Shown here piece by piece: positions 17,565-24,561 of a stretch of DNA of 40,375 nucleotides. Positions within the stretch are counted from its first letter, which is position 1, and each line of letters starts with the position of its first letter. A model generated the notes under the pieces. That model was not told where the DNA came from and did not search any database. It saw nothing but the letters and a program-made list of their open reading frames with translations. The stretch comes from Candidatus Hermodarchaeota archaeon (GTDB taxonomy: Archaea > Asgardarchaeota > Hermodarchaeia > Hermodarchaeales > Hermodarchaeaceae): positions 1 through 40,375 of the forward strand of contig JAEOTB010000023.1 of assembly GCA_016840065.1 (NCBI GenBank), given 5' to 3'. Both the position numbers and the translations under genes were made by a program.

Positions 17565-17960
17565 TTTTTATTTCCTCCTGTAATTAGGAAGATGATTCTA
17601 AGGCAGATTATCCACTTCATTTAAAAAAGTATGTTTTAGTGCAAGGTCGGGATTCCTCTGCCATTTTCAACGATAGCATGATTATATTTACGTAATTTCG
17701 TTAAATTTTTCGAATAAAAACGGAAGAACAGAGGTAACATTTTGTGACCTCTAGCTGTGAGCGCTTAAGGTGAGTTTTCCTTATATACTGTCAAGCTAGA
17801 ACAATCAGTTGCTGCAATGGTTGTTGATGGATAATGATGAACTTTGTAGTTCCTCGACTCGTAAATGATTCGGATTTATCCCCTTAACATCTTCGCAATT
17901 GCAGTGATAGCAAAGTTTAAAGAAAAGAATGTATTGCCACCTAAAGAGATGGGGATTTCA

Positions 17961-18527
17961 ATGCGTGAGATAACCTCTTTGAGAAAACTTCGGTATTCAC
18001 AGTTAGTTGCCCTGTTATTCATTGGTTGTACAGTTTCCTCTGCTGTTGGTATCGTTATTCTAAATAATGATTACTTCTCAGTGTTCGATACCGCGAATCG
18101 TTTCATTCCTCGCGTCACACGATTTACCAAGTCCCCCGAAGGGCCAGGAAATTCTCGTAACCTTACTTTGTACCTGAATATGGCAAATCCAGGAAGTCGC
18201 CGAATTTTCTTCTTGAGAGAAGGGGATCCTACACAACCTACGAATATAGAAATTAGAATCTGGTTGAATGGCCATTTCATAACAAGTCAAGAACTTCGAC
18301 CAGAGCTAATCTTGTTACCAGGATCGGATTATACTCTCACGGCCAATTTCACGGTCGAAGATTTGGATATACCTACAAGCTATGGATCATACATCGCAGA
18401 CGCAGAAGAGACTGGCCTTTGGAATTGGGAATTATATTATCCAATGAGAATCTTTGTTGAGTGGCTATATATCAGAGAATCTCATCTCCGAATGCCTTGG
18501 TCAGGAATTGAGGTGCCAGTACAATGA
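17961..18527 (+). CDS. Single-TM protein with an extracellular beta domain
   Basis: N-terminal TM, NLTLYLNMANPGS; overlaps the next gene by ATGA; start refined from 17865. Confidence 0.7.
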   Translation: MREITSLRKLRYSQLVALLFIGCTVSSAVGIVILNNDYFSVFDTANRFIPRVTRFTKSPEGPGNSRNLTLYLNMANPGSRRIFFLREGDPTQPTNIEIRIWLNGHFITSQELRPELILLPGSDYTLTANFTVEDLDIPTSYGSYIADAEETGLWNWELYYPMRIFVEWLYIRESHLRMPWSGIEVPVQ

Positions 18528-18979
18528 CAATATCTACAAAGAGAAAAGAAGTGCTAATGGGTCGTTTACGTATGTCGCTTGCCCTCTTGGGCGGTGGCTT
18601 GATGTTATGCCTAACAACCTATACAACACTTGTTAACTTGACAGATGCATTATGGGTCATCTTAATGGTATTGGGTGTTGGAATACTCATAGGAATGATG
18701 AGCAGCGAAATCCAATGGGCCTTAGTTCTAGCGATAGCCTCCTTTTTCATGGGAATCGTCTTCTACATCATCTCAATCATGATTCCAGTGACGTTGTTCG
18801 GTTCTGCAGCTTTAGGTGATGTGTTAATTCTCTTTGGCCTCTTTGCAGTCTTACGAGTAATACACTTACAGATTTTTGGTCTATTCATTGGCGCTTTTAT
18901 AGGTAGAGTTATTGGTCCCGATTGGTACGCTGTGGGAGTAATAGCCCAACATCAGCTCAGACCTACTAGAAAAGAATGA
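18524..18979 (+). CDS. Multi-pass membrane hypothetical protein
   Basis: Four to five hydrophobic segments; translationally coupled to the upstream gene. Confidence 0.75.
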   Translation: MTISTKRKEVLMGRLRMSLALLGGGLMLCLTTYTTLVNLTDALWVILMVLGVGILIGMMSSEIQWALVLAIASFFMGIVFYIISIMIPVTLFGSAALGDVLILFGLFAVLRVIHLQIFGLFIGAFIGRVIGPDWYAVGVIAQHQLRPTRKE

Positions 18980-19103: not shown

Positions 19104-19379
19104 CTATTCCCGAACGAATCGTTTTCCAGGAACCCTTACTAGAGTCATTACCCACACGCCCATCAGGAATCCAACAAACACTCCAACCGCTACAAGAATT
19201 TCAGCCCAGAGGAGAAGGGGATAATTCTGAGGCGAGTTCGTATACACTATTATCCACATGACTATTCCGCACAGAATCATCGAAAGAGGTATCAGGAACG
19301 CCTTGAAATTAAATGCCGATAAGGGAGAGGGGCGGCGTCGAGGTTTACCAAAACTCGCCGATGTAGGTCTTACTGTCAT
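19104..19379 (-). CDS. Two-TM hypothetical protein
   Basis: Basic N-terminus and two hydrophobic helices. Confidence 0.6.
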   Translation of the reverse strand: MTVRPTSASFGKPRRRPSPLSAFNFKAFLIPLSMILCGIVMWIIVYTNSPQNYPLLLWAEILVAVGVFVGFLMGVWVMTLVRVPGKRFVRE

Positions 19380-19547
19380 AATACCTGATGTGTTCAGTAT
19401 TACAGCCCACATTATAATCGAGGAAAATGTGAGTAGGTACCCGCTGAAAAAGATGACGCTATCAGCACAACCTGTTCAACGAAGAGAAAAGTAGGTTTCG
19501 ACAAATTAAAAACCTGATTATACTCTCCCTTATAGGAGGCAATAATA

Positions 19548-19898
19548 ATGCGTGTCATGAACAGCAGCAGAAACACGATAGCCCAAATCTCTGGGAGCAG
19601 GATTATGAGCAGCAGCGGAAGTACTTGGGGCTATGTTGAGAGTGGTCGTGTGATGAACAGTAGCCGCAGTACAATCGGATATGTTGAAAATGGCTACGTG
19701 ATGAATTCCTCAAGAAGCACCATCGGTCGCTACGACTCAGGACGGATAAGCTCCTCCTCAGGATCGACTCGTTTCTATATCGAAGGAACTAGAATAATGA
19801 GCAGTAGTCGGAATAGTATTGGTTATACTAGTGAATCAGCTGAATCATACCTTGAAGAAGTTATAGCATATATCGTCTTCTTTTCCGACTGGTGGTGA
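19548..19898 (+). CDS. Six-repeat beta-hairpin protein, beta-flower-like
   Basis: AGGAGG SD; 6 x 16-aa repeats (R-V/I-M-N/S-SS-x-S-T-I-G-Y-V-E-x-G) and a hydrophobic C-terminal helix. Confidence 0.75.
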   Translation: MRVMNSSRNTIAQISGSRIMSSSGSTWGYVESGRVMNSSRSTIGYVENGYVMNSSRSTIGRYDSGRISSSSGSTRFYIEGTRIMSSSRNSIGYTSESAESYLEEVIAYIVFFSDWW

Positions 19899-19937
19899 TT
19901 TAGCTACAATTACTAACTACAAATTTTAAGGACATAG

Positions 19938-20158
19938 GAAGGGAGCAGCCATTTCAAAGGCGCTGCATTGCATTTGAGGGCAGCTGCTCACCTTCATCGC
20001 CTGGTTATACCAGCTATTGTTCTGACAATGCTCGGATGTTAAGACGCTACTGGTCCTGAAGCAGTCGCTTCAAACCGGACCAGTATTCCGAGAACCATTG
20101 CAGGAATTGAACTCTAGCACCAACCAAACCTTCAGGGAGAAAAAGGCTGGCATAACCA
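19938..20158 (-). ncRNA. Candidate structured non-coding RNA of unknown family
   Basis: Five nested helices over 20002-20158 plus a hairpin at 19938-19995; TATA-like TTTATTAA about 30 nt upstream on the minus strand. Confidence 0.6.
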
Positions 20159-20177
20159 ACAATATCCTCTACCCGAA

Positions 20178-20187
20178 TTTTAATAAA
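20178..20187 (-). promoter_or_regulatory. TATA-like box upstream of the candidate ncRNA (could also serve the divergent hydantoinase operon)
   Basis: Minus strand tttattaaaa, first T about 30 nt before the first paired G (20157). Confidence 0.5.
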
Positions 20188-20266
20188 CCTAATTATTGCG
20201 GCAACAGTTTCGAAGTAAAACTAGAAATAGCTAGGGGCTTCTTTCTCCCTTTATGAGGTCCTTGCC

Positions 20267-22327
20267 TTGAGTAAACAAGGTTCCAGACCAGTTCGTATCG
20301 GTATTGATGTTGGAGGAACCTTCACTGATGTACTCCTTGTCGACCATCAAGGTCAGCGCTGGCATGTTAAGGTTCCGTCAACACCAAGTGATTCTTCGCA
20401 GGGAGTTCTCAGAGGTCTACAAGAAGTATTAGATTTGGCTGAGACAGCACCAAATCAGATCTCCTACATCCTTCACGGTACGACTGTTGCAACGAATGCA
20501 GTATTACAGCGACAAGGCGCAAGAATCAGCCTTATTACAACTAAAGGGTTTGAGAATCTCCTTGAAATTGGACGACAGCAGCGCCCTTCACTGTATGATA
20601 TATCAGTTGACAGAATTCCTCCATTAGTACCCCGAGAACGTTGTATTGGAGTTATTGAGCGGATTACATCCGATGGGAGACTTCACACTAAATTAACTAA
20701 AAAGGAAGCCGCCAAGGTTGCTAGAATATCGGGGGAAAATGTTGAGGCGGTTGCGGTCTGCTTGCTGTTCGGTTACAGCAACCCTTCTCATGAAAAACAA
20801 TTGTACAGACATTTAGAGTCTCTCTATCCTGGAATCCCTGTTTCTCTTTCTTCAGAAGTCTTGCCGGAGTACCGTGAGTATGAACGGATGTCTACGACAG
20901 TTCTTGAAGCGTATGTTACTCCACTGCTTTCGACTTACCTACAGAACCTCGAAGATGCACTCAAGTCAGCTAATGTGACAGCCCCTCTATTAGTTATGCA
21001 GAGTCACGGGGGAATCCTTCAGTCTTCCTTGGCTCGACAGCAAGCTGCACGATTATTATTCAGTGGTCTTGCAGGCGGCACTCTAGGAGGACGCTATACC
21101 AGCCAGGTCACTAATGAAGATAATCTTATCACATTTGACATGGGCGGCACAAGCACGGATGTAGCACTAATAACAAAAGGAGAAATTCGTGAAACCACAG
21201 AAGGACACATTGGAGGACTCCCCTGTCGTGCGCCAATGGTAGATGTTGAGACAGTGGGAGCAGGTGGTGGTAGCATTGCTTGGATTGACGACGGAGGTAT
21301 TCTGCGAGTTGGACCACATAGTGCTGGTGCCGACCCTGGTCCTTGTTGTTACAATAAAGGTGGTCGTGAAGCAACCGTAACTGATGCTAATCTAATTCTG
21401 GGCCGACTGAACCCACACTATTTTCTTGGAGGCAAACTACCTCTCCACCCTCAACCTGCTCGAGAACAGCTACTGCGCCTGAGTCGACAGCTTCGTCTTT
21501 CTATGGAGGAGTTCGCCTTTGGTATCATACGTGTTGTTAACGCCAACATGGAACGTGCCATCCGACTTGTTTCTATTCAACGGGGATATGATCCTCGCGA
21601 CTTTGCCCTTGTTGCCTTTGGAGGTGCTGGACCCATGCATGCTTGGGCTTTAGCAAAGGAACTTGGAATTCCACGTGTGATTGTTCCACTTGCGCCTGGA
21701 CTACACTCTGCTCTTGGATTGTTAGCTACTAACTTACGCTGCGACCGTAGTCGTACAGTTCTCATACCAGCGAGTACTCCAGATTTTTCGGAACTTACCA
21801 CTACATACCAAAATCTCGAGTCCGCTACTAAACAACTACTTCGGGCGCAAGGAGTAAAAGAAAAGGATATCCACACTCGACGTTTGGTAGACCTCCGTTA
21901 CCGGGGACAAGCCTACGAGTTTACATTAGATGCGCCGAAAGGGAGAATAAATCAGAATTGGTTAAATCGATTACTTGAGAGCTTCCACACAAGACACAAG
22001 CGAAGATATGGTTATTCAACCCCTTACGACGAAGTAACCATCGTTAACCTGCGTATCACTACCATTGGTTCCATGCCAGCCTTACTGCCTCCAAATATCT
22101 CTGAAACAGGAATGAGACCCGTACCAAAGGAACAACGTAGAGTATATTTTGAGGAGCTTCAAGAATTTGTAGAGACGCCAATCTTTGAAAGGTCATCTTT
22201 AGGGCTCGGCTCTGAGATACAGGGCCCAGCCATAATTGAACAGCTAGACTCAACGACCATCGTTCACCCGAATACTAAGGCGGTTATGCGAAAAGACGGC
22301 AACCTCCTGTTGGAGGAGATTCGATGA
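20267..22327 (+). CDS. hyuA: Hydantoinase A / 5-oxoprolinase N-terminal-type subunit
   Basis: IGIDVGGTFTD, HGTTVATNA, DMGGTSTD, GAGGGS, GPHSAGADPGP, FGGAGPMH. Confidence 0.93.
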   Translation: MSKQGSRPVRIGIDVGGTFTDVLLVDHQGQRWHVKVPSTPSDSSQGVLRGLQEVLDLAETAPNQISYILHGTTVATNAVLQRQGARISLITTKGFENLLEIGRQQRPSLYDISVDRIPPLVPRERCIGVIERITSDGRLHTKLTKKEAAKVARISGENVEAVAVCLLFGYSNPSHEKQLYRHLESLYPGIPVSLSSEVLPEYREYERMSTTVLEAYVTPLLSTYLQNLEDALKSANVTAPLLVMQSHGGILQSSLARQQAARLLFSGLAGGTLGGRYTSQVTNEDNLITFDMGGTSTDVALITKGEIRETTEGHIGGLPCRAPMVDVETVGAGGGSIAWIDDGGILRVGPHSAGADPGPCCYNKGGREATVTDANLILGRLNPHYFLGGKLPLHPQPAREQLLRLSRQLRLSMEEFAFGIIRVVNANMERAIRLVSIQRGYDPRDFALVAFGGAGPMHAWALAKELGIPRVIVPLAPGLHSALGLLATNLRCDRSRTVLIPASTPDFSELTTTYQNLESATKQLLRAQGVKEKDIHTRRLVDLRYRGQAYEFTLDAPKGRINQNWLNRLLESFHTRHKRRYGYSTPYDEVTIVNLRITTIGSMPALLPPNISETGMRPVPKEQRRVYFEELQEFVETPIFERSSLGLGSEIQGPAIIEQLDSTTIVHPNTKAVMRKDGNLLLEEIR

Positions 22328-23928
22328 AAACTGACCCAGTTACCTTTGAGGTTCTCAGGAACGCATTTGTCTCTGTAGCAGAGGAAATGGGTGCAAGTCT
22401 GATTCGCACAGCATTCTCACCAAATATTAAGGAGCGCCGTGACTGTTCAGCCGCTGTGTTTGATAGCCTAGGAAGAATGGTCAGCCAAGCTGAACATATC
22501 CCAGTTCACCTAGGAGCCATGCCAGAGTCCATCAAAGCTGCCCTAGTCGAGTTCCCTGCTGATCTTTGGAATGATGGTGATGTGGTTATCCTCAACGACC
22601 CCTTCGAAGGAGGAACACACCTACCAGATATCACCTTGATTTCACCTGTATTCACTTCTGGGGAGCTTACTGGCTTTGTAGCGAATCGAGCTCACCATGC
22701 TGACGTGGGTGGCAAAGCACCTGGATCTATGCCTGGTGACTCTACTGAGATATTTCAAGAGGGGCTCCGAATACCTCCTCTGAAATTAATTGAGGAAGAG
22801 ACTCTTAATCAGGAGGTGTGGCGTCTACTACTTGCTAACGTTAGAACCCCTCGTGAACGCCAAGGAGATTTACGGGCACAACTTGCCGCAAACAATACTG
22901 GTCTCCGTCGATTTCAGGCAATTACTGAGAAATACGGAGTGGCAGCAGTAACGACTTTTCTTGGGGATCTTCTAGCCTATTCGGAGCGGCGTATGCAGAA
23001 GCAGATTAGGCAAATGCCAAAGGGCAGTTATTCGTTTACCGACTATCTTGACAACGATGGCATTACAGAGGAACCAGTGAAACTTTCAGTAAAGGTAACA
23101 ATTGACAGAACACGGATTTCTTTTGATTTCTCAGGCACAAGCCCGCAACGACAAGGAAACGTAAACGCAACCTTTGCAGTGACTCTCTCAACATCCTACT
23201 ATGTCCTTCGCTGCGTCACTGACCCCACAATTCCCGCTAATGCAGGGTGTTACAGACCCCTCACCGTTAGAGCACCACCAGGCTCACTTCTAAACCCTAC
23301 TCCTCCAGCAGCAGTAGCCGCAGGAAATGTAGAAACCTCCCAGCGCGTAGTTGATGTGCTCTTCGGCGCCCTCGCAAAAGCACTCCCTGACCGAATCCCT
23401 GCAGCTAGCCAAGGTACAATGAATAACCTCACCATAGGAGGTATAATTCCAGGAACCACTCATGCCTTTACATTCTACGAAACAATTGGTGGTGGCATTG
23501 GAGCGAGACCAACCAAAAACGGTGTAGATGGTATTCACAGCCATATGACAAACACCATGAACACACCTATTGAAGCTCTCGAAACAAGCTATCCGCTCAG
23601 AGTCCGTTGCTACCACCTTATTCCAGGTAGTGGTGGAAAGGGACTATTTCGTGGTGGATTAGGTATCCGCCGAGACATCGAGATTCTCATTGACCAAGCA
23701 ATCGTTTCCATTCAGAGTGAGCGCCGCCACTACGCTCCTTGGGGTCTTCAAGGTGGTATGCCTGGACGAAGGGGTGTGAACCAACGCTGGCGTGGTGGAA
23801 AGTGGGAGAAACTCCCCAGCAAGATTACCTTCACTGCCTCAAGAGGAGAAGTTGTAAGTATACAGACTCCAGGAGGGGGTGGTTTTGGGAAGCCAAAGCA
23901 GAGGAGTCGAAGAAAGTCACAGAAGTAG
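22324..23928 (+). CDS. hyuB: Hydantoinase B / 5-oxoprolinase C-terminal-type subunit
   Basis: [46 protein letters not shown]. Confidence 0.93.
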
Positions 23929-24561
23929 ACTTAGAACGAAGGCTCTCCAACAAAAAGAGATGCCAAAATAGATGAGAAAAACGGTGAAGACGAGCATGAG
24001 CACTGTATAACCTCTGCTCCCCATTAGATTTGCACCTTTTTTAGTGAGCCAAGCTGTACCAGTGAGCCAAACGTAATCCATCCAGACATGTGCCGCAAAC
24101 ATGATGAAAACACCAGCAAGAGCAGCGATGAGGAGGGCCTCGAAAACCAGGTTAGCACCAGCGGTCAACCACCAAAATAGAAAATATGGGTTCAATCCAC
24201 TAAAGATAAGGCCAGCGATAAGTGGATGACGTGAGGTCGCGGCAGGCTCTACTTTTGCCAAGTGAGTTTCTGATCTTGAGTGAATCACCTCACGGATTTG
24301 CAGGCCAGCAAAGAGGAGTAGTACTACTCCACCCACCGCTGCAATAATCACTTCCAACAACAGGTTGTTAATTACCAAGTTTAGACCAAAGGCGATTAGT
24401 AGAATTAGGGGTAACTCGATGAAAGTGTGCCCAATTGAGAGCCAGAGACCACCTCGCCAACCCCAACGAGATGCATTGGATAAATTAGTGACAAGTAGTG
24501 GTCCAGGTGAGAGAGCTCCGCTCATCGTTACAAAAACCACGGTTAGCAAGAAATACTGCAC
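23917..24561 (-). CDS. LysE-family transporter
   Basis: SGALSPGPL, GHTFIELP, LNPYFLFWW. Confidence 0.9.
   Translation of the reverse strand: MQYFLLTVVFVTMSGALSPGPLLVTNLSNASRWGWRGGLWLSIGHTFIELPLILLIAFGLNLVINNLLLEVIIAAVGGVVLLLFAGLQIREVIHSRSETHLAKVEPAATSRHPLIAGLIFSGLNPYFLFWWLTAGANLVFEALLIAALAGVFIMFAAHVWMDYVWLTGTAWLTKKGANLMGSRGYTVLMLVFTVFLIYFGISFCWRAFVLSLLL

What the first reader, a model, noticed from the sequence alone, without database searches (positions are those of the whole stretch)
19938..20187. Unannotated highly structured RNA with its own promoter and a possible conformational switch
Seen in sequence (plus coordinates): 20002-20014 pairs with 20146-20158 (13 bp; one position is G-U on the minus strand but A-C on the plus strand, favouring minus). 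Nested inside are caatg/cattg (20026-30/20096-100), ctcgga/tccgag (20031-36/20087-92), a perfect 9-bp tactggtcc/ggaccagta (20048-56/20077-85) and an apical tgaagc-agtc-gcttca hairpin. A large asymmetric bubble (~20105-20145) carries a 7-nt segment (20130-36) complementary to 20055-61, which offers a mutually exclusive alternative fold. A second long hairpin lies at 19938-19995. A TATA-like TTTATTAA sits about 30 nt upstream of the first paired base on the minus strand, the archaeal spacing expected if transcription starts at the closing stem. I see no SRP helix-8, RNase P, tRNA or C/D box signatures. Inference: a stand-alone ~160-220 nt rod-with-bubble ncRNA (6S- or Y-RNA-like architecture) or a switch RNA of a family I do not recognise.
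Basis: partly seen in the sequence, partly recalled or inferred. Interest (0 to 1): 0.8.

Follow-up and report, generated by a model that had tools for sequence, protein, structure and literature searches.

The report
New structured small RNA gene, Hermodarchaeota
The gene-free gap holds a real, single-copy gene for a folded non-coding RNA of about 230 bases, found in only three genomes of one genus of Hermod-type Asgard archaea; it matches no catalogued RNA family, and neither its expression nor its job has been shown.

Summary
The 231-nt core (19928-20158) folds far better than shuffles (z -5.3), and two same-genus orthologues fold alone into the same shape (z -5.0, -4.4). There are 10 compensatory pair changes against at most 2 in slid controls.

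The RNA keeps 76-79% pairwise identity, while four-fold degenerate sites of the neighbouring gene are near saturation (38-42%). It is therefore under purifying selection. G-U versus A-C counts (33:7) and a 5.5 kcal/mol energy difference favour the minus strand. An invariant TATA box sits exactly 30 nt upstream of the first paired base, across a spacer that keeps its length but not its sequence.

- **Not a known RNA:** Rfam gives no hit, and it is not SRP RNA, RNase P RNA, a tRNA, a MITE or a small ORF.
- **Distribution:** I found it only in 3 of 4 genomes of one Hermodarchaeota genus, and not in 15 sister-genus genomes or about 130 other Asgard genomes.
- **Link to hydAB:** the fourth genus member has deleted both the RNA gene with its TATA box and the adjacent hydantoinase A/B genes. 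This hints at a functional link.
- **Proposed switch:** it is not supported (+5 to +15 kcal/mol).
- **Open points:** function and expression are unproven.

The parts
19928..20158 (-). Whole predicted ncRNA (about 231 nt). The 5' end is placed from promoter geometry; the 3' end is placed only from the drop in conservation after hairpin 2.
   Evidence: CM R1 built on this span scores 238-257 bits in G000, G002 and G003 only. z -5.27. Conservation profile.
20178..20187 (-). TATA box (TTTATTAAAA on minus, TTTTAATAAA on plus). It is near-symmetric and may fire in both directions.
   Evidence: Invariant in 3 species. It lies 30 nt upstream of the first base of P1, and the spacer keeps its length but is only 32% invariant. 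Bidirectional archaeal TATA precedent: PMC6640164.
20188..20206 (.). Conserved block on the BRE side of the RNA promoter. It contains the palindrome TTGCGGCAA (20196-20204), a possible operator shared with hydA.
   Evidence: The TATA block plus this block (20178-20206) is 83% invariant. The palindrome was read from the sequence.
20146..20157 (-). P1 5' strand (GGUUAUGCCAGC). The predicted transcription start is at or near 20157 (T/G, pyrimidine-purine, in all three).
   Evidence: 12/12 pairs are kept in 3 species, with only G-U/A-U changes. 92% invariant.
20107..20145 (-). Large 5' strand of the asymmetric internal loop. It is nearly invariant (UUUCUCCCUGAAGG...UUGGUUGGUGCUAGAGUUMAAUU) and holds a weak G-U-rich mini-hairpin and a T-loop-like G-UUCAA-UU-C. 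This is the likely working surface.
   Evidence: Alignments. 18 nt are identical in all three species. Helix 2 has no informative covariation.
20020..20106 (-). Irregular rod P3-P4-P5 with its apical loop at 20063-20066. Its sequence varies but its pairing is kept.
   Evidence: 7 of the 10 compensatory pair changes lie in helices 3-5. The same rod appears in three independent single-sequence folds.
20003..20019 (-). Short 3' strand of the internal loop (20015-20019) and the P1 3' strand (20003-20014).
19931..20001 (-). 3' hairpin (HP2). It has an invariant 14-bp lower stem and a variable tip, and lies 1 nt from P1, so coaxial stacking is likely.
   Evidence: Helices 6-9: the lower stem is 100% paired with G-U/A-U changes only, and there are compensatory changes in the tip.
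20215..20233 (+). Conserved box in the hydA leader (GTAAAACTAGAAATAGCT). It is either part of the hydA 5' UTR or hydA's own promoter. It is context, not part of the RNA.
   Evidence: 79% invariant. It is retained in the G001 remnant.

Best explanation
This is a genuine, single-copy, genus-restricted gene for a structured non-coding RNA of about 230 nt, read from the minus strand.

**Transcription (inferred).** It starts at about 20157, which is 30 nt downstream of an invariant, nearly symmetric TATA box. The first 12 nt pair with 20003-20014 to close the molecule.

**Fold (supported by comparison of three species).**
- A 12-bp closing stem.
- A very asymmetric internal loop whose roughly 39-nt 5' strand is almost invariant.
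- A roughly 40-bp irregular rod whose sequence drifts while its pairing is kept.
- A conserved 3' hairpin stacked next to the closing stem.

**Mechanism (inferred).**
- The rod and stems act as a scaffold that presents the invariant single-stranded loop, and the invariant strands of P5 and HP2, to a protein or RNA partner. That would make it a regulatory or RNP RNA rather than a ribozyme or guide of a known class.
- It sits back to back with the hydantoinase/oxoprolinase hydAB genes, possibly sharing one bidirectional TATA box, which would put the two starts about 50 bp apart.
- It was deleted in the one congener that also deleted hydAB.
- It is therefore most likely co-expressed with, and functionally tied to, that operon.

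**My odds.**
- A real minus-strand ncRNA gene: about 0.8.
- A functional tie to hydAB: about 0.3.
- The exact partner is unknown.
For: **Fold.**
- z is -5.27, -5.03 and -4.38 in the three species, each folded alone into the same architecture.
- 92.5% of pair cells are paired, against 32-46% when partners are slid.
- 10 pairs carry changes on both sides, against 0-2 in slid controls and 0 of 500 shuffles.

**Selection.**
- RNA pairwise identity is 76-79%.
- Four-fold sites of hydA are 38-42% identical, and hydA protein is 73% identical, between G000 and G002/G003.
- Indels are not multiples of three, and the best-conserved stretch shows no synonymous-type variation.

**Strand.**
- My tally of the table gives 33 G-U cells that only the minus strand tolerates, against 7 that only the plus strand tolerates.
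- In pairs predicted on both strands the count is 6 against 2.
- The minus strand folds 5.5 kcal/mol better.

**Promoter.**
- The TATA box is invariant, and the 30-nt spacing to P1 is exact in three species although the spacer sequence is only 32% invariant.
- T/G is found at -1/+1 in all three.

**Not a known RNA or a repeat.**
- Rfam gives nothing at gathering scores, and only junk (E 1.4 and 5.9) in a scan up to E 10.
- SRP RNA lies elsewhere in G000.
- RNase P RNA lies elsewhere in G002 and G003.
- No tRNA was found.
- It is single copy in the genome.

**Link to hydAB.**
- In G001 the RNA gene with its TATA box is gone, and hydAB is gone from about codon 7 of hydA to about 25 nt before the hydB stop.
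- The 96-nt hydA leader between them and the beta-flower gene survive.
- One TATA box driving two starts about 50 bp apart has been shown in Pyrococcus furiosus (PMC6640164).
Against:
- Only three sequences exist, all from one genus, so covariation statistics are weak and the invariant parts (P1, loop, lower HP2) carry no covariation at all.
- The promoter lacks the GAAA-N3-TTTAAA BRE/TATA pattern seen upstream of this genome's tRNA and SRP RNA genes.
- No clear oligo-T terminator follows hairpin 2 on the minus strand, so the 3' end is uncertain.
- The hydAB link rests on one lineage (G001) and on adjacent DNA, so linked decay or chance loss is possible.
- hydA orthologues in 13 sister-genus genomes have no such RNA upstream.
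- Duplex scans gave no sign of pairing with the hydA or hydB start regions.
Confidence: 0.6

Rival explanations
1. The functional transcript is the plus strand. It would be a long structured 3' UTR of the beta-flower mRNA, or a 5' leader or riboswitch-like element read through into hydAB.
For: - The plus strand also folds well (z -4.76).
- T-rich runs follow the structure on the plus strand in G002 and G003.
- The element is lost together with hydAB in G001.
Against: - G-U against A-C counts are 33:7 in favour of minus (my tally of the table), and the minus strand folds 5.5 kcal/mol better.
- A conserved TATA box lies between the structure and hydA, at exactly -30 from P1 on the minus strand.
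- The beta-flower gene stays intact and conserved in G001 without the element.
- hydA in the sister genus has no such leader.
Confidence: 0.12
2. It is a cis-antisense regulator of the convergent beta-flower gene, like a type I antitoxin or 3'-overlap antisense RNA. On this reading, transcription runs past hairpin 2 into the antisense of the beta-flower 3' end.
For: - The two are convergent, and hairpin 2 ends only 33 nt from the beta-flower stop codon.
- There is no strong terminator after hairpin 2.
- The beta-flower gene and the RNA together form a genus-specific insertion between p102 and hydA.
- The beta-flower protein has a hydrophobic C-terminal helix.
Against: - G001 keeps an intact beta-flower gene, 90% identical in protein, without the RNA.
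- A beta-flower paralogue in G000 (C107) and three more distant beta-flower loci have no such RNA.
- The 12-nt similarity between P1 and the beta-flower coding sequence is not kept in G003.
Confidence: 0.1
3. It is a DNA-level element. The two P1 arms are each quasi-palindromes (CTGGT-TAT-ACCAG), so they could be two copies of a dimeric transcription-factor site 145 bp apart that control the hydA promoter by looping, rather than an RNA helix.
For: - Each P1 strand is self-complementary.
- P1 shows no double compensatory change.
- A further palindrome, TTGCNGCAA, lies next to the TATA box.
Against: - It does not explain the rod and HP2, which carry 10 compensatory changes.
- It does not explain the strand-biased G-U pattern.
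- Both variable P1 positions change only in ways that keep RNA pairing on the minus strand.
Confidence: 0.05
4. It is a functionless by-product of divergent transcription from the hydA promoter, or a decaying remnant of a small protein gene.
For: - Divergent transcripts from symmetric archaeal TATA boxes are common and mostly judged non-functional (PMC6640164).
- A 52-codon plus-strand ORF exists in G000.
- The RNA has been lost in G001.
Against: - Conservation is strong while neutral sites are near saturation.
- Pairing is maintained by compensatory changes.
- The ORF has a TAG right after its start in G003, and the G003 alignment has a 1-nt insertion and a 1-nt deletion about 12 nt apart that shift the frame between them.
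- The conservation is at nucleotide level, not codon level.
Confidence: 0.05

Closest known systems
Orphan, lineage-restricted structured small RNA genes of archaea. Examples from my own knowledge are the Hgc RNAs of Methanocaldococcus and the Pyrococcus intergenic sRNAs. Similar unnamed Asgard RNAs were noted by this scan (e1-5560505, e1-5415637, e1-5619723).
   Same: - A stand-alone gene with its own TATA promoter.
- 5' and 3' parts that pair.
- Conserved single-stranded surfaces on variable helices.
- No Rfam family and no known function.
   Different: - There is no sequence or CM similarity to any of them.
- Its range is narrower: one genus, three genomes.
- It sits back to back with a metabolic operon and was lost together with it.
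Bacterial 6S RNA (my own knowledge; the Rfam 6S families were included in the scans)
   Same: The size class (about 180-230 nt) and the layout of closing stem, large internal loop and terminal helical arm.
   Different: - There is no Rfam hit.
- The loop is very asymmetric (about 39 nt against 5-7 nt) and abuts a short 12-bp closing stem, rather than being a central, two-sided, open-promoter mimic.
- It has an extra 3' hairpin.
- No archaeal 6S is known, and RNA polymerase binding was not tested.
Y RNA and bacterial YrlA (the Ro60/Rsr partner)
   Same: The ends pair into a stem, there is a large internal loop, and the loop contains a T-loop-like G-UUCAA-UU-C.
   Different: - No TROVE/Ro gene was found in G000, which is 84% complete.
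- There is no Rfam hit.
- It has no tRNA-like domain with a real T-stem.
- It is about twice the length.
Bacterial regulatory sRNAs transcribed divergently from a functionally related neighbour, such as OxyS/oxyR, SgrS/sgrR and GcvB/gcvA (my own knowledge), and archaeal bidirectional TATA promoters (PMC6640164)
   Same: A back-to-back arrangement with a neighbouring gene, and a possibly shared control region with a palindromic site between the two starts.
   Different: - The neighbour here is an enzyme operon, not a regulator gene.
- No target pairing was detected.
- The RNA is much more structured than typical seed-type sRNAs.

Membership tests
Any Rfam 15 family | A covariance-model match at the gathering score | tested here: not met
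   There were 0 matches over the whole window. At E up to 10 only two junk hits appeared outside or at the edges (DGCR5 at E 5.9, GlsR6 at E 1.4).
Archaeal SRP RNA | It is the genome's only SRP RNA, with helix 8 and the Alu domain | tested here: not met
   A canonical SRP RNA lies at G000:C10:114632-114973, scoring 103.9 bits.
Archaeal RNase P RNA | CR-I/CR-V and P4, one copy per genome | tested here: not met
   G002 and G003 carry canonical RNase P RNAs elsewhere (183 and 186 bits) as well as this RNA. The absence in G000 fits its 84% completeness.
MITE or other dispersed repeat | Many genomic copies with target-site duplications | tested here: not met
   The only full-length match in the 2.59-Mb assembly is the locus itself. 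The other matches are 33 nt or shorter.
6S RNA | A central two-sided bubble that mimics an open promoter, with RNA polymerase binding and pRNA synthesis | tested here: inconclusive
   The architecture is only loosely similar, and the loop is one-sided. Binding cannot be tested with these tools.
Y RNA / YrlA | A Ro/Rsr (TROVE) partner gene and a conserved bulged Ro-binding helix | tested here: not met
   No TROVE match was found in G000, and there is no Rfam Y_RNA match.
C/D box or other K-turn (L7Ae) sRNA | Box C (RUGAUGA) and box D (CUGA) forming tandem sheared G-A pairs next to a 3-nt bulge | tested here: not met
   RCGAUGA (about 19995) and CUGA (about 20133) exist, but in the order D then C and 130 nt apart. 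The strand opposite GAUGAAGG is CCUUCCUAUGUC, which has no GA. This was checked by eye only.
BHB-processed circular RNA (a lead from earlier scan notes) | Two 3-nt bulges separated by a 4-bp helix at the base of the closing stem | tested here: not met
   P1 is an uninterrupted 12-bp helix. The flanks (UGUU / AGGC) do not pair, and no 3-4-3 motif follows P1. This was checked by eye, with no read data.
Riboswitch or conformational switch RNA | Two mutually exclusive, energetically accessible folds, or a ligand pocket coupled to an expression platform | tested here: not met
   The forced alternative pairing costs +14.6, +7.4 and +5.1 kcal/mol and has an ensemble probability of about 0. No downstream gene lies on the RNA's strand. 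Ligand binding cannot be tested here.
Type I antitoxin / 3'-overlapping antisense RNA | The RNA overlaps the toxin mRNA, and the toxin cannot persist without it | tested here: inconclusive
   The convergent geometry fits, but the beta-flower gene persists intact without the RNA in G001. Transcript ends are unknown.

The most novel reading that the evidence does not exclude
The RNA is a dedicated riboregulator or RNP partner of the hydantoinase/oxoprolinase system in an Asgard archaeon. On this reading a divergent promoter transcript has been captured by selection into a stable, structured RNA. It would then sense or buffer the pathway, for example by binding a metabolite or titrating a protein that also recognises the shared UUUCUCC motif in the hydA leader. 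That would be a new class of operon-coupled trans-acting structured RNA in archaea.
Probability: 0.12. Interest if true: 0.7.

Novelty: new member of a known kind. Interest (0 to 1): 0.4.

Why it matters
Asgard archaea are uncultured relatives of eukaryotes, and their non-coding RNA repertoire is almost unknown. This adds a well-delimited RNA gene, supported by comparison of three species, with a clear promoter and a testable fold.

It also offers a small natural experiment. One congener lost both the RNA and the neighbouring hydAB genes but kept the DNA between them.

If the hydAB link holds, it would be a rare archaeal case of a structured RNA evolving from, and staying coupled to, a divergent promoter of a metabolic operon. 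The very narrow range (one genus, three MAGs) and the lack of expression data limit its weight for now.

Tried and rejected
**Searches for known families**
- Rfam at gathering score and at E up to 10 gave nothing.
- ARAGORN found no tRNA.

**Searches for more homologues**
- BLAST over 40 relatives found only G002 and G003.
- CM R1 over the 19-genome family, which is also the whole class, found only those two plus G000 itself. The two weak hits are a 36-nt hairpin in G015 and a hit inside a 746-aa ORF in G007, and I judge both spurious.
- CM R1 over 151 genomes of the phylum added nothing.
- CM R1 with filters off, next to hydA in 13 sister-genus genomes, found nothing.
- An exact 18-mer scan of GTDB genome contigs returned only the two known loci.
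- An 18-mer scan of JGI metagenomes returned 16 hits, none of which matched the CM.
- Viral contig scans returned 0 and 9 hits, none real.
- Relatives of the beta-flower protein and their contigs carry no RNA.

**Expression**

**Target and pairing scans**
- RNAduplex of the RNA against the hydA leader was no better than shuffles.
- The invariant loop against 3626 crude start regions ranked hydA at 2057 and hydB at 509. I treat this as noise.

**Other ideas dropped**
- A 12-nt P1-like segment inside the beta-flower gene is not conserved in G003.
- An 18-nt identity to C10:121996 is in the same sense as the RNA rather than complementary, sits in a stretch that looks coding (not checked), and is probably chance (E 0.06).
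- The 52-aa plus-strand ORF is rejected.
- K-turn, BHB, hammerhead-like and G-quadruplex readings were checked by eye only and dropped.
- Literature searches found no described Asgard or hydantoinase-linked RNA of this kind.

Full report
**Setting**

The finding lies in a 368-bp gap (19899-20266). On one side is a 116-aa beta-flower gene (19548-19898, +, PF21785). On the other is hydantoinase/oxoprolinase A (20267-22327, +), followed by B (22324-23928, +). Records holding the two orthologous loci are titled Hermodarchaeota MAGs, so the Asgard assignment holds. The window's genome is a MAG of 2.59 Mb in 131 contigs, 84% complete and 46.9% G+C.

**Observation**

- The 231-nt core (19928-20158) folds at -90.8 kcal/mol on the minus strand (z -5.27). 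On the plus strand it folds at -85.3 kcal/mol (z -4.76). None of 200 dinucleotide shuffles does as well.
- The whole gap gives z -3.7 and -3.5.

**Homologues and selection**
- BLAST over 40 relatives found the element in two of three same-genus genomes, G002 and G003, at 77% identity. Both have the same gene order: beta-flower, the gap, then hydA.
- Each orthologue, folded alone, gives the same architecture (z -5.03 and -4.38).
- On the three-way alignment, 92.5% of pair cells are standard pairs, against 32-46% when the partners are slid.
- 10 pairs show changes on both sides, against 0-2 in slid controls and 0 of 500 shuffles. These lie mostly in the middle rod and the tip of the 3' hairpin.
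- RNA pairwise identity is 76-79%.
- In the adjacent hydA gene, four-fold degenerate sites are only 38-42% identical between G000 and the other two, and the protein is 73% identical. Neutral sites are therefore near saturation, and the RNA is under purifying selection.
- Conservation steps sharply along the gap:

| Segment | Fraction invariant |
|---|---|
| P1 5' strand | 0.92 |
| 19-nt spacer between P1 and the TATA box | 0.32 |
| TATA block | 0.83 |
| Stretch from the beta-flower stop to hairpin 2 | 0.45 |

**Strand and promoter**
- My tally of the table gives 33 G-U cells in the consensus helices that only the minus strand tolerates, against 7 that only the plus strand would.
- Restricted to pairs predicted independently on both strands, the count is 6 against 2.
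- P1 and the lower 3' hairpin vary only by G-U/A-U exchanges that are legal on the minus strand.
- TTTATTAAAA on the minus strand begins at 20187, exactly 30 nt before the first base of P1, in all three species. There are no indels in the otherwise poorly conserved spacer, and T/G is found at -1/+1.
- A caveat: tRNA and SRP RNA genes of this genome show GAAA-N3-TTTAAA upstream, and the candidate lacks that BRE.
- The TATA box is nearly symmetric. In Pyrococcus furiosus one TATA box can drive two starts about 50 bp apart (PMC6640164). Here that would place a hydA start near 20208.
- Alternatively, the conserved box at 20215-20233 is hydA's own promoter.
- No convincing oligo-T follows hairpin 2, so the 3' end is inferred only from the drop in conservation.

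**What it is not**
- Rfam 15 gives nothing.
- A canonical SRP RNA lies on another contig.
- RNase P RNA was not found in G000. However, G002 and G003 each carry a canonical one elsewhere as well as this RNA.
- ARAGORN finds no tRNA.
- The element is single copy, so it is not a MITE.
- No reading frame is conserved. The 52-codon plus-strand ORF has a TAG right after its start in G003. The G003 alignment also has a 1-nt insertion and a 1-nt deletion about 12 nt apart that shift the frame between them. Its best-conserved stretch has no synonymous-type variation.
- No Ro/TROVE gene was found.
- By eye I see no K-turn and no bulge-helix-bulge motif.

**Distribution and locus history**
- A covariance model (237 positions, 80 pairs) scores 238-257 bits in the three loci.
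- It finds nothing credible in the fourth genus member, in 15 sister-genus genomes (which complete the family and class), in about 130 further genomes of the phylum, or next to hydA in the sister genus.
- Exact-word scans of GTDB contigs, JGI metagenomes and IMG/VR added no loci.
- In the sister genus the order is p220, p151, p102 (on the minus strand), then hydA. In this genus the beta-flower gene and the RNA gene sit between p102 and hydA.
- In G001, which by four-fold sites is the closest relative of G002, the beta-flower gene is intact.
- In G001 about 290 bp holding the RNA gene and its TATA box are replaced by about 25 bp.
- The next 96 bp in G001 (the hydA leader and about 6 codons) survive at 76% identity.
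- hydAB is then deleted up to about 25 nt before the hydB stop.
- The RNA and hydAB therefore disappeared on the same terminal branch by at least two deletions. This is suggestive of a functional tie, but it is a single event in adjacent DNA.

**The proposed switch**

The 7-nt complementarity (CCUGAAG in the loop, CUUCAGG in P5) is real and invariant. Forcing it costs +14.6, +7.4 and +5.1 kcal/mol in the three species, and its ensemble probability is about zero. Compensatory changes support the rod instead. I do not regard a switch as supported.

**Mechanism**

*Shown:* a conserved, strand-biased fold, promoter geometry, and co-loss with hydAB.

*Inferred:*
- The variable rod and the invariant stems scaffold an almost invariant loop strand of about 39 nt. 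Its sequence is UUUCUCCCUGAAGG...UUGGUUGGUGCUAGAGUUMAAUU, and it includes a T-loop-like G-UUCAA-UU-C.
- The scaffold presents this loop to a protein or RNA partner.
- The RNA is co-expressed with hydAB from back-to-back, or one bidirectional, promoter. A palindrome (TTGCGGCAA) lies between the two starts.
- A UUUCUCC motif is shared, in the same sense, with the hydA leader. It could be a common protein site, but this is speculative.
- Duplex scans gave no evidence for base-pairing with the hydA or hydB start regions.

**Verdict**

This is a real, previously undescribed, genus-restricted structured ncRNA gene on the minus strand. Function and expression remain open. The scan has noted comparable orphan Asgard RNAs on other DNA, but none shares sequence with this one.

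Noticed in passing
L052 (G001:C182) 700-870, compared with window 19899-23930: A decayed orthologous locus. The RNA gene with its TATA box and almost all of hydAB are deleted, while a 96-nt remnant of the hydA leader and first codons and the beta-flower gene remain.
   Followed up: yes
window 20196-20204: A palindrome, TTGCGGCAA (TTGC-N-GCAA), nearly invariant in the three species (G002 reads A for the first G), lies immediately beside the TATA box. It is a possible operator shared by the RNA promoter and the hydA promoter.
   Followed up: no
window 20215-20233 and 20242-20249: A conserved box in the hydA leader (GTAAAACTAGAAATAGCT), and a UUUCUCC motif just upstream of the Shine-Dalgarno sequence. 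The same motif recurs, in the same sense, in the RNA's invariant loop.
   Followed up: partly
window 19104-19412 (-), 18524-18979 (+), 17865-18527 (+): p102 (which looks like a small membrane protein and has no Pfam hit), p151 and p220 keep their order next to hydA across the sister genus. p102 is transcribed divergently from hydA there. Their functions are unknown.
   Followed up: partly
G000:C107:43154-43498: A second beta-flower paralogue, 59% identical, elsewhere in the genome with no RNA of this family nearby.
   Followed up: partly
G000, whole assembly: RNase P RNA (RF00373) was not found in this 84%-complete MAG, although all 20 relatives searched have it. It is probably an assembly gap. 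Only 15 tRNA genes were detected by ARAGORN.
   Followed up: partly
G000 tRNA and SRP RNA upstream regions: Stable-RNA promoters of this genome share a clear GAAA-N3-TTTAAA (BRE-TATA) pattern about 35-42 nt upstream of the mature 5' end. This is useful for annotating other ncRNA genes here.
   Followed up: no
window 20267: hydA appears to start with TTG in all three species, 7 nt after a GAGGT or GGGGT Shine-Dalgarno sequence.
   Followed up: no
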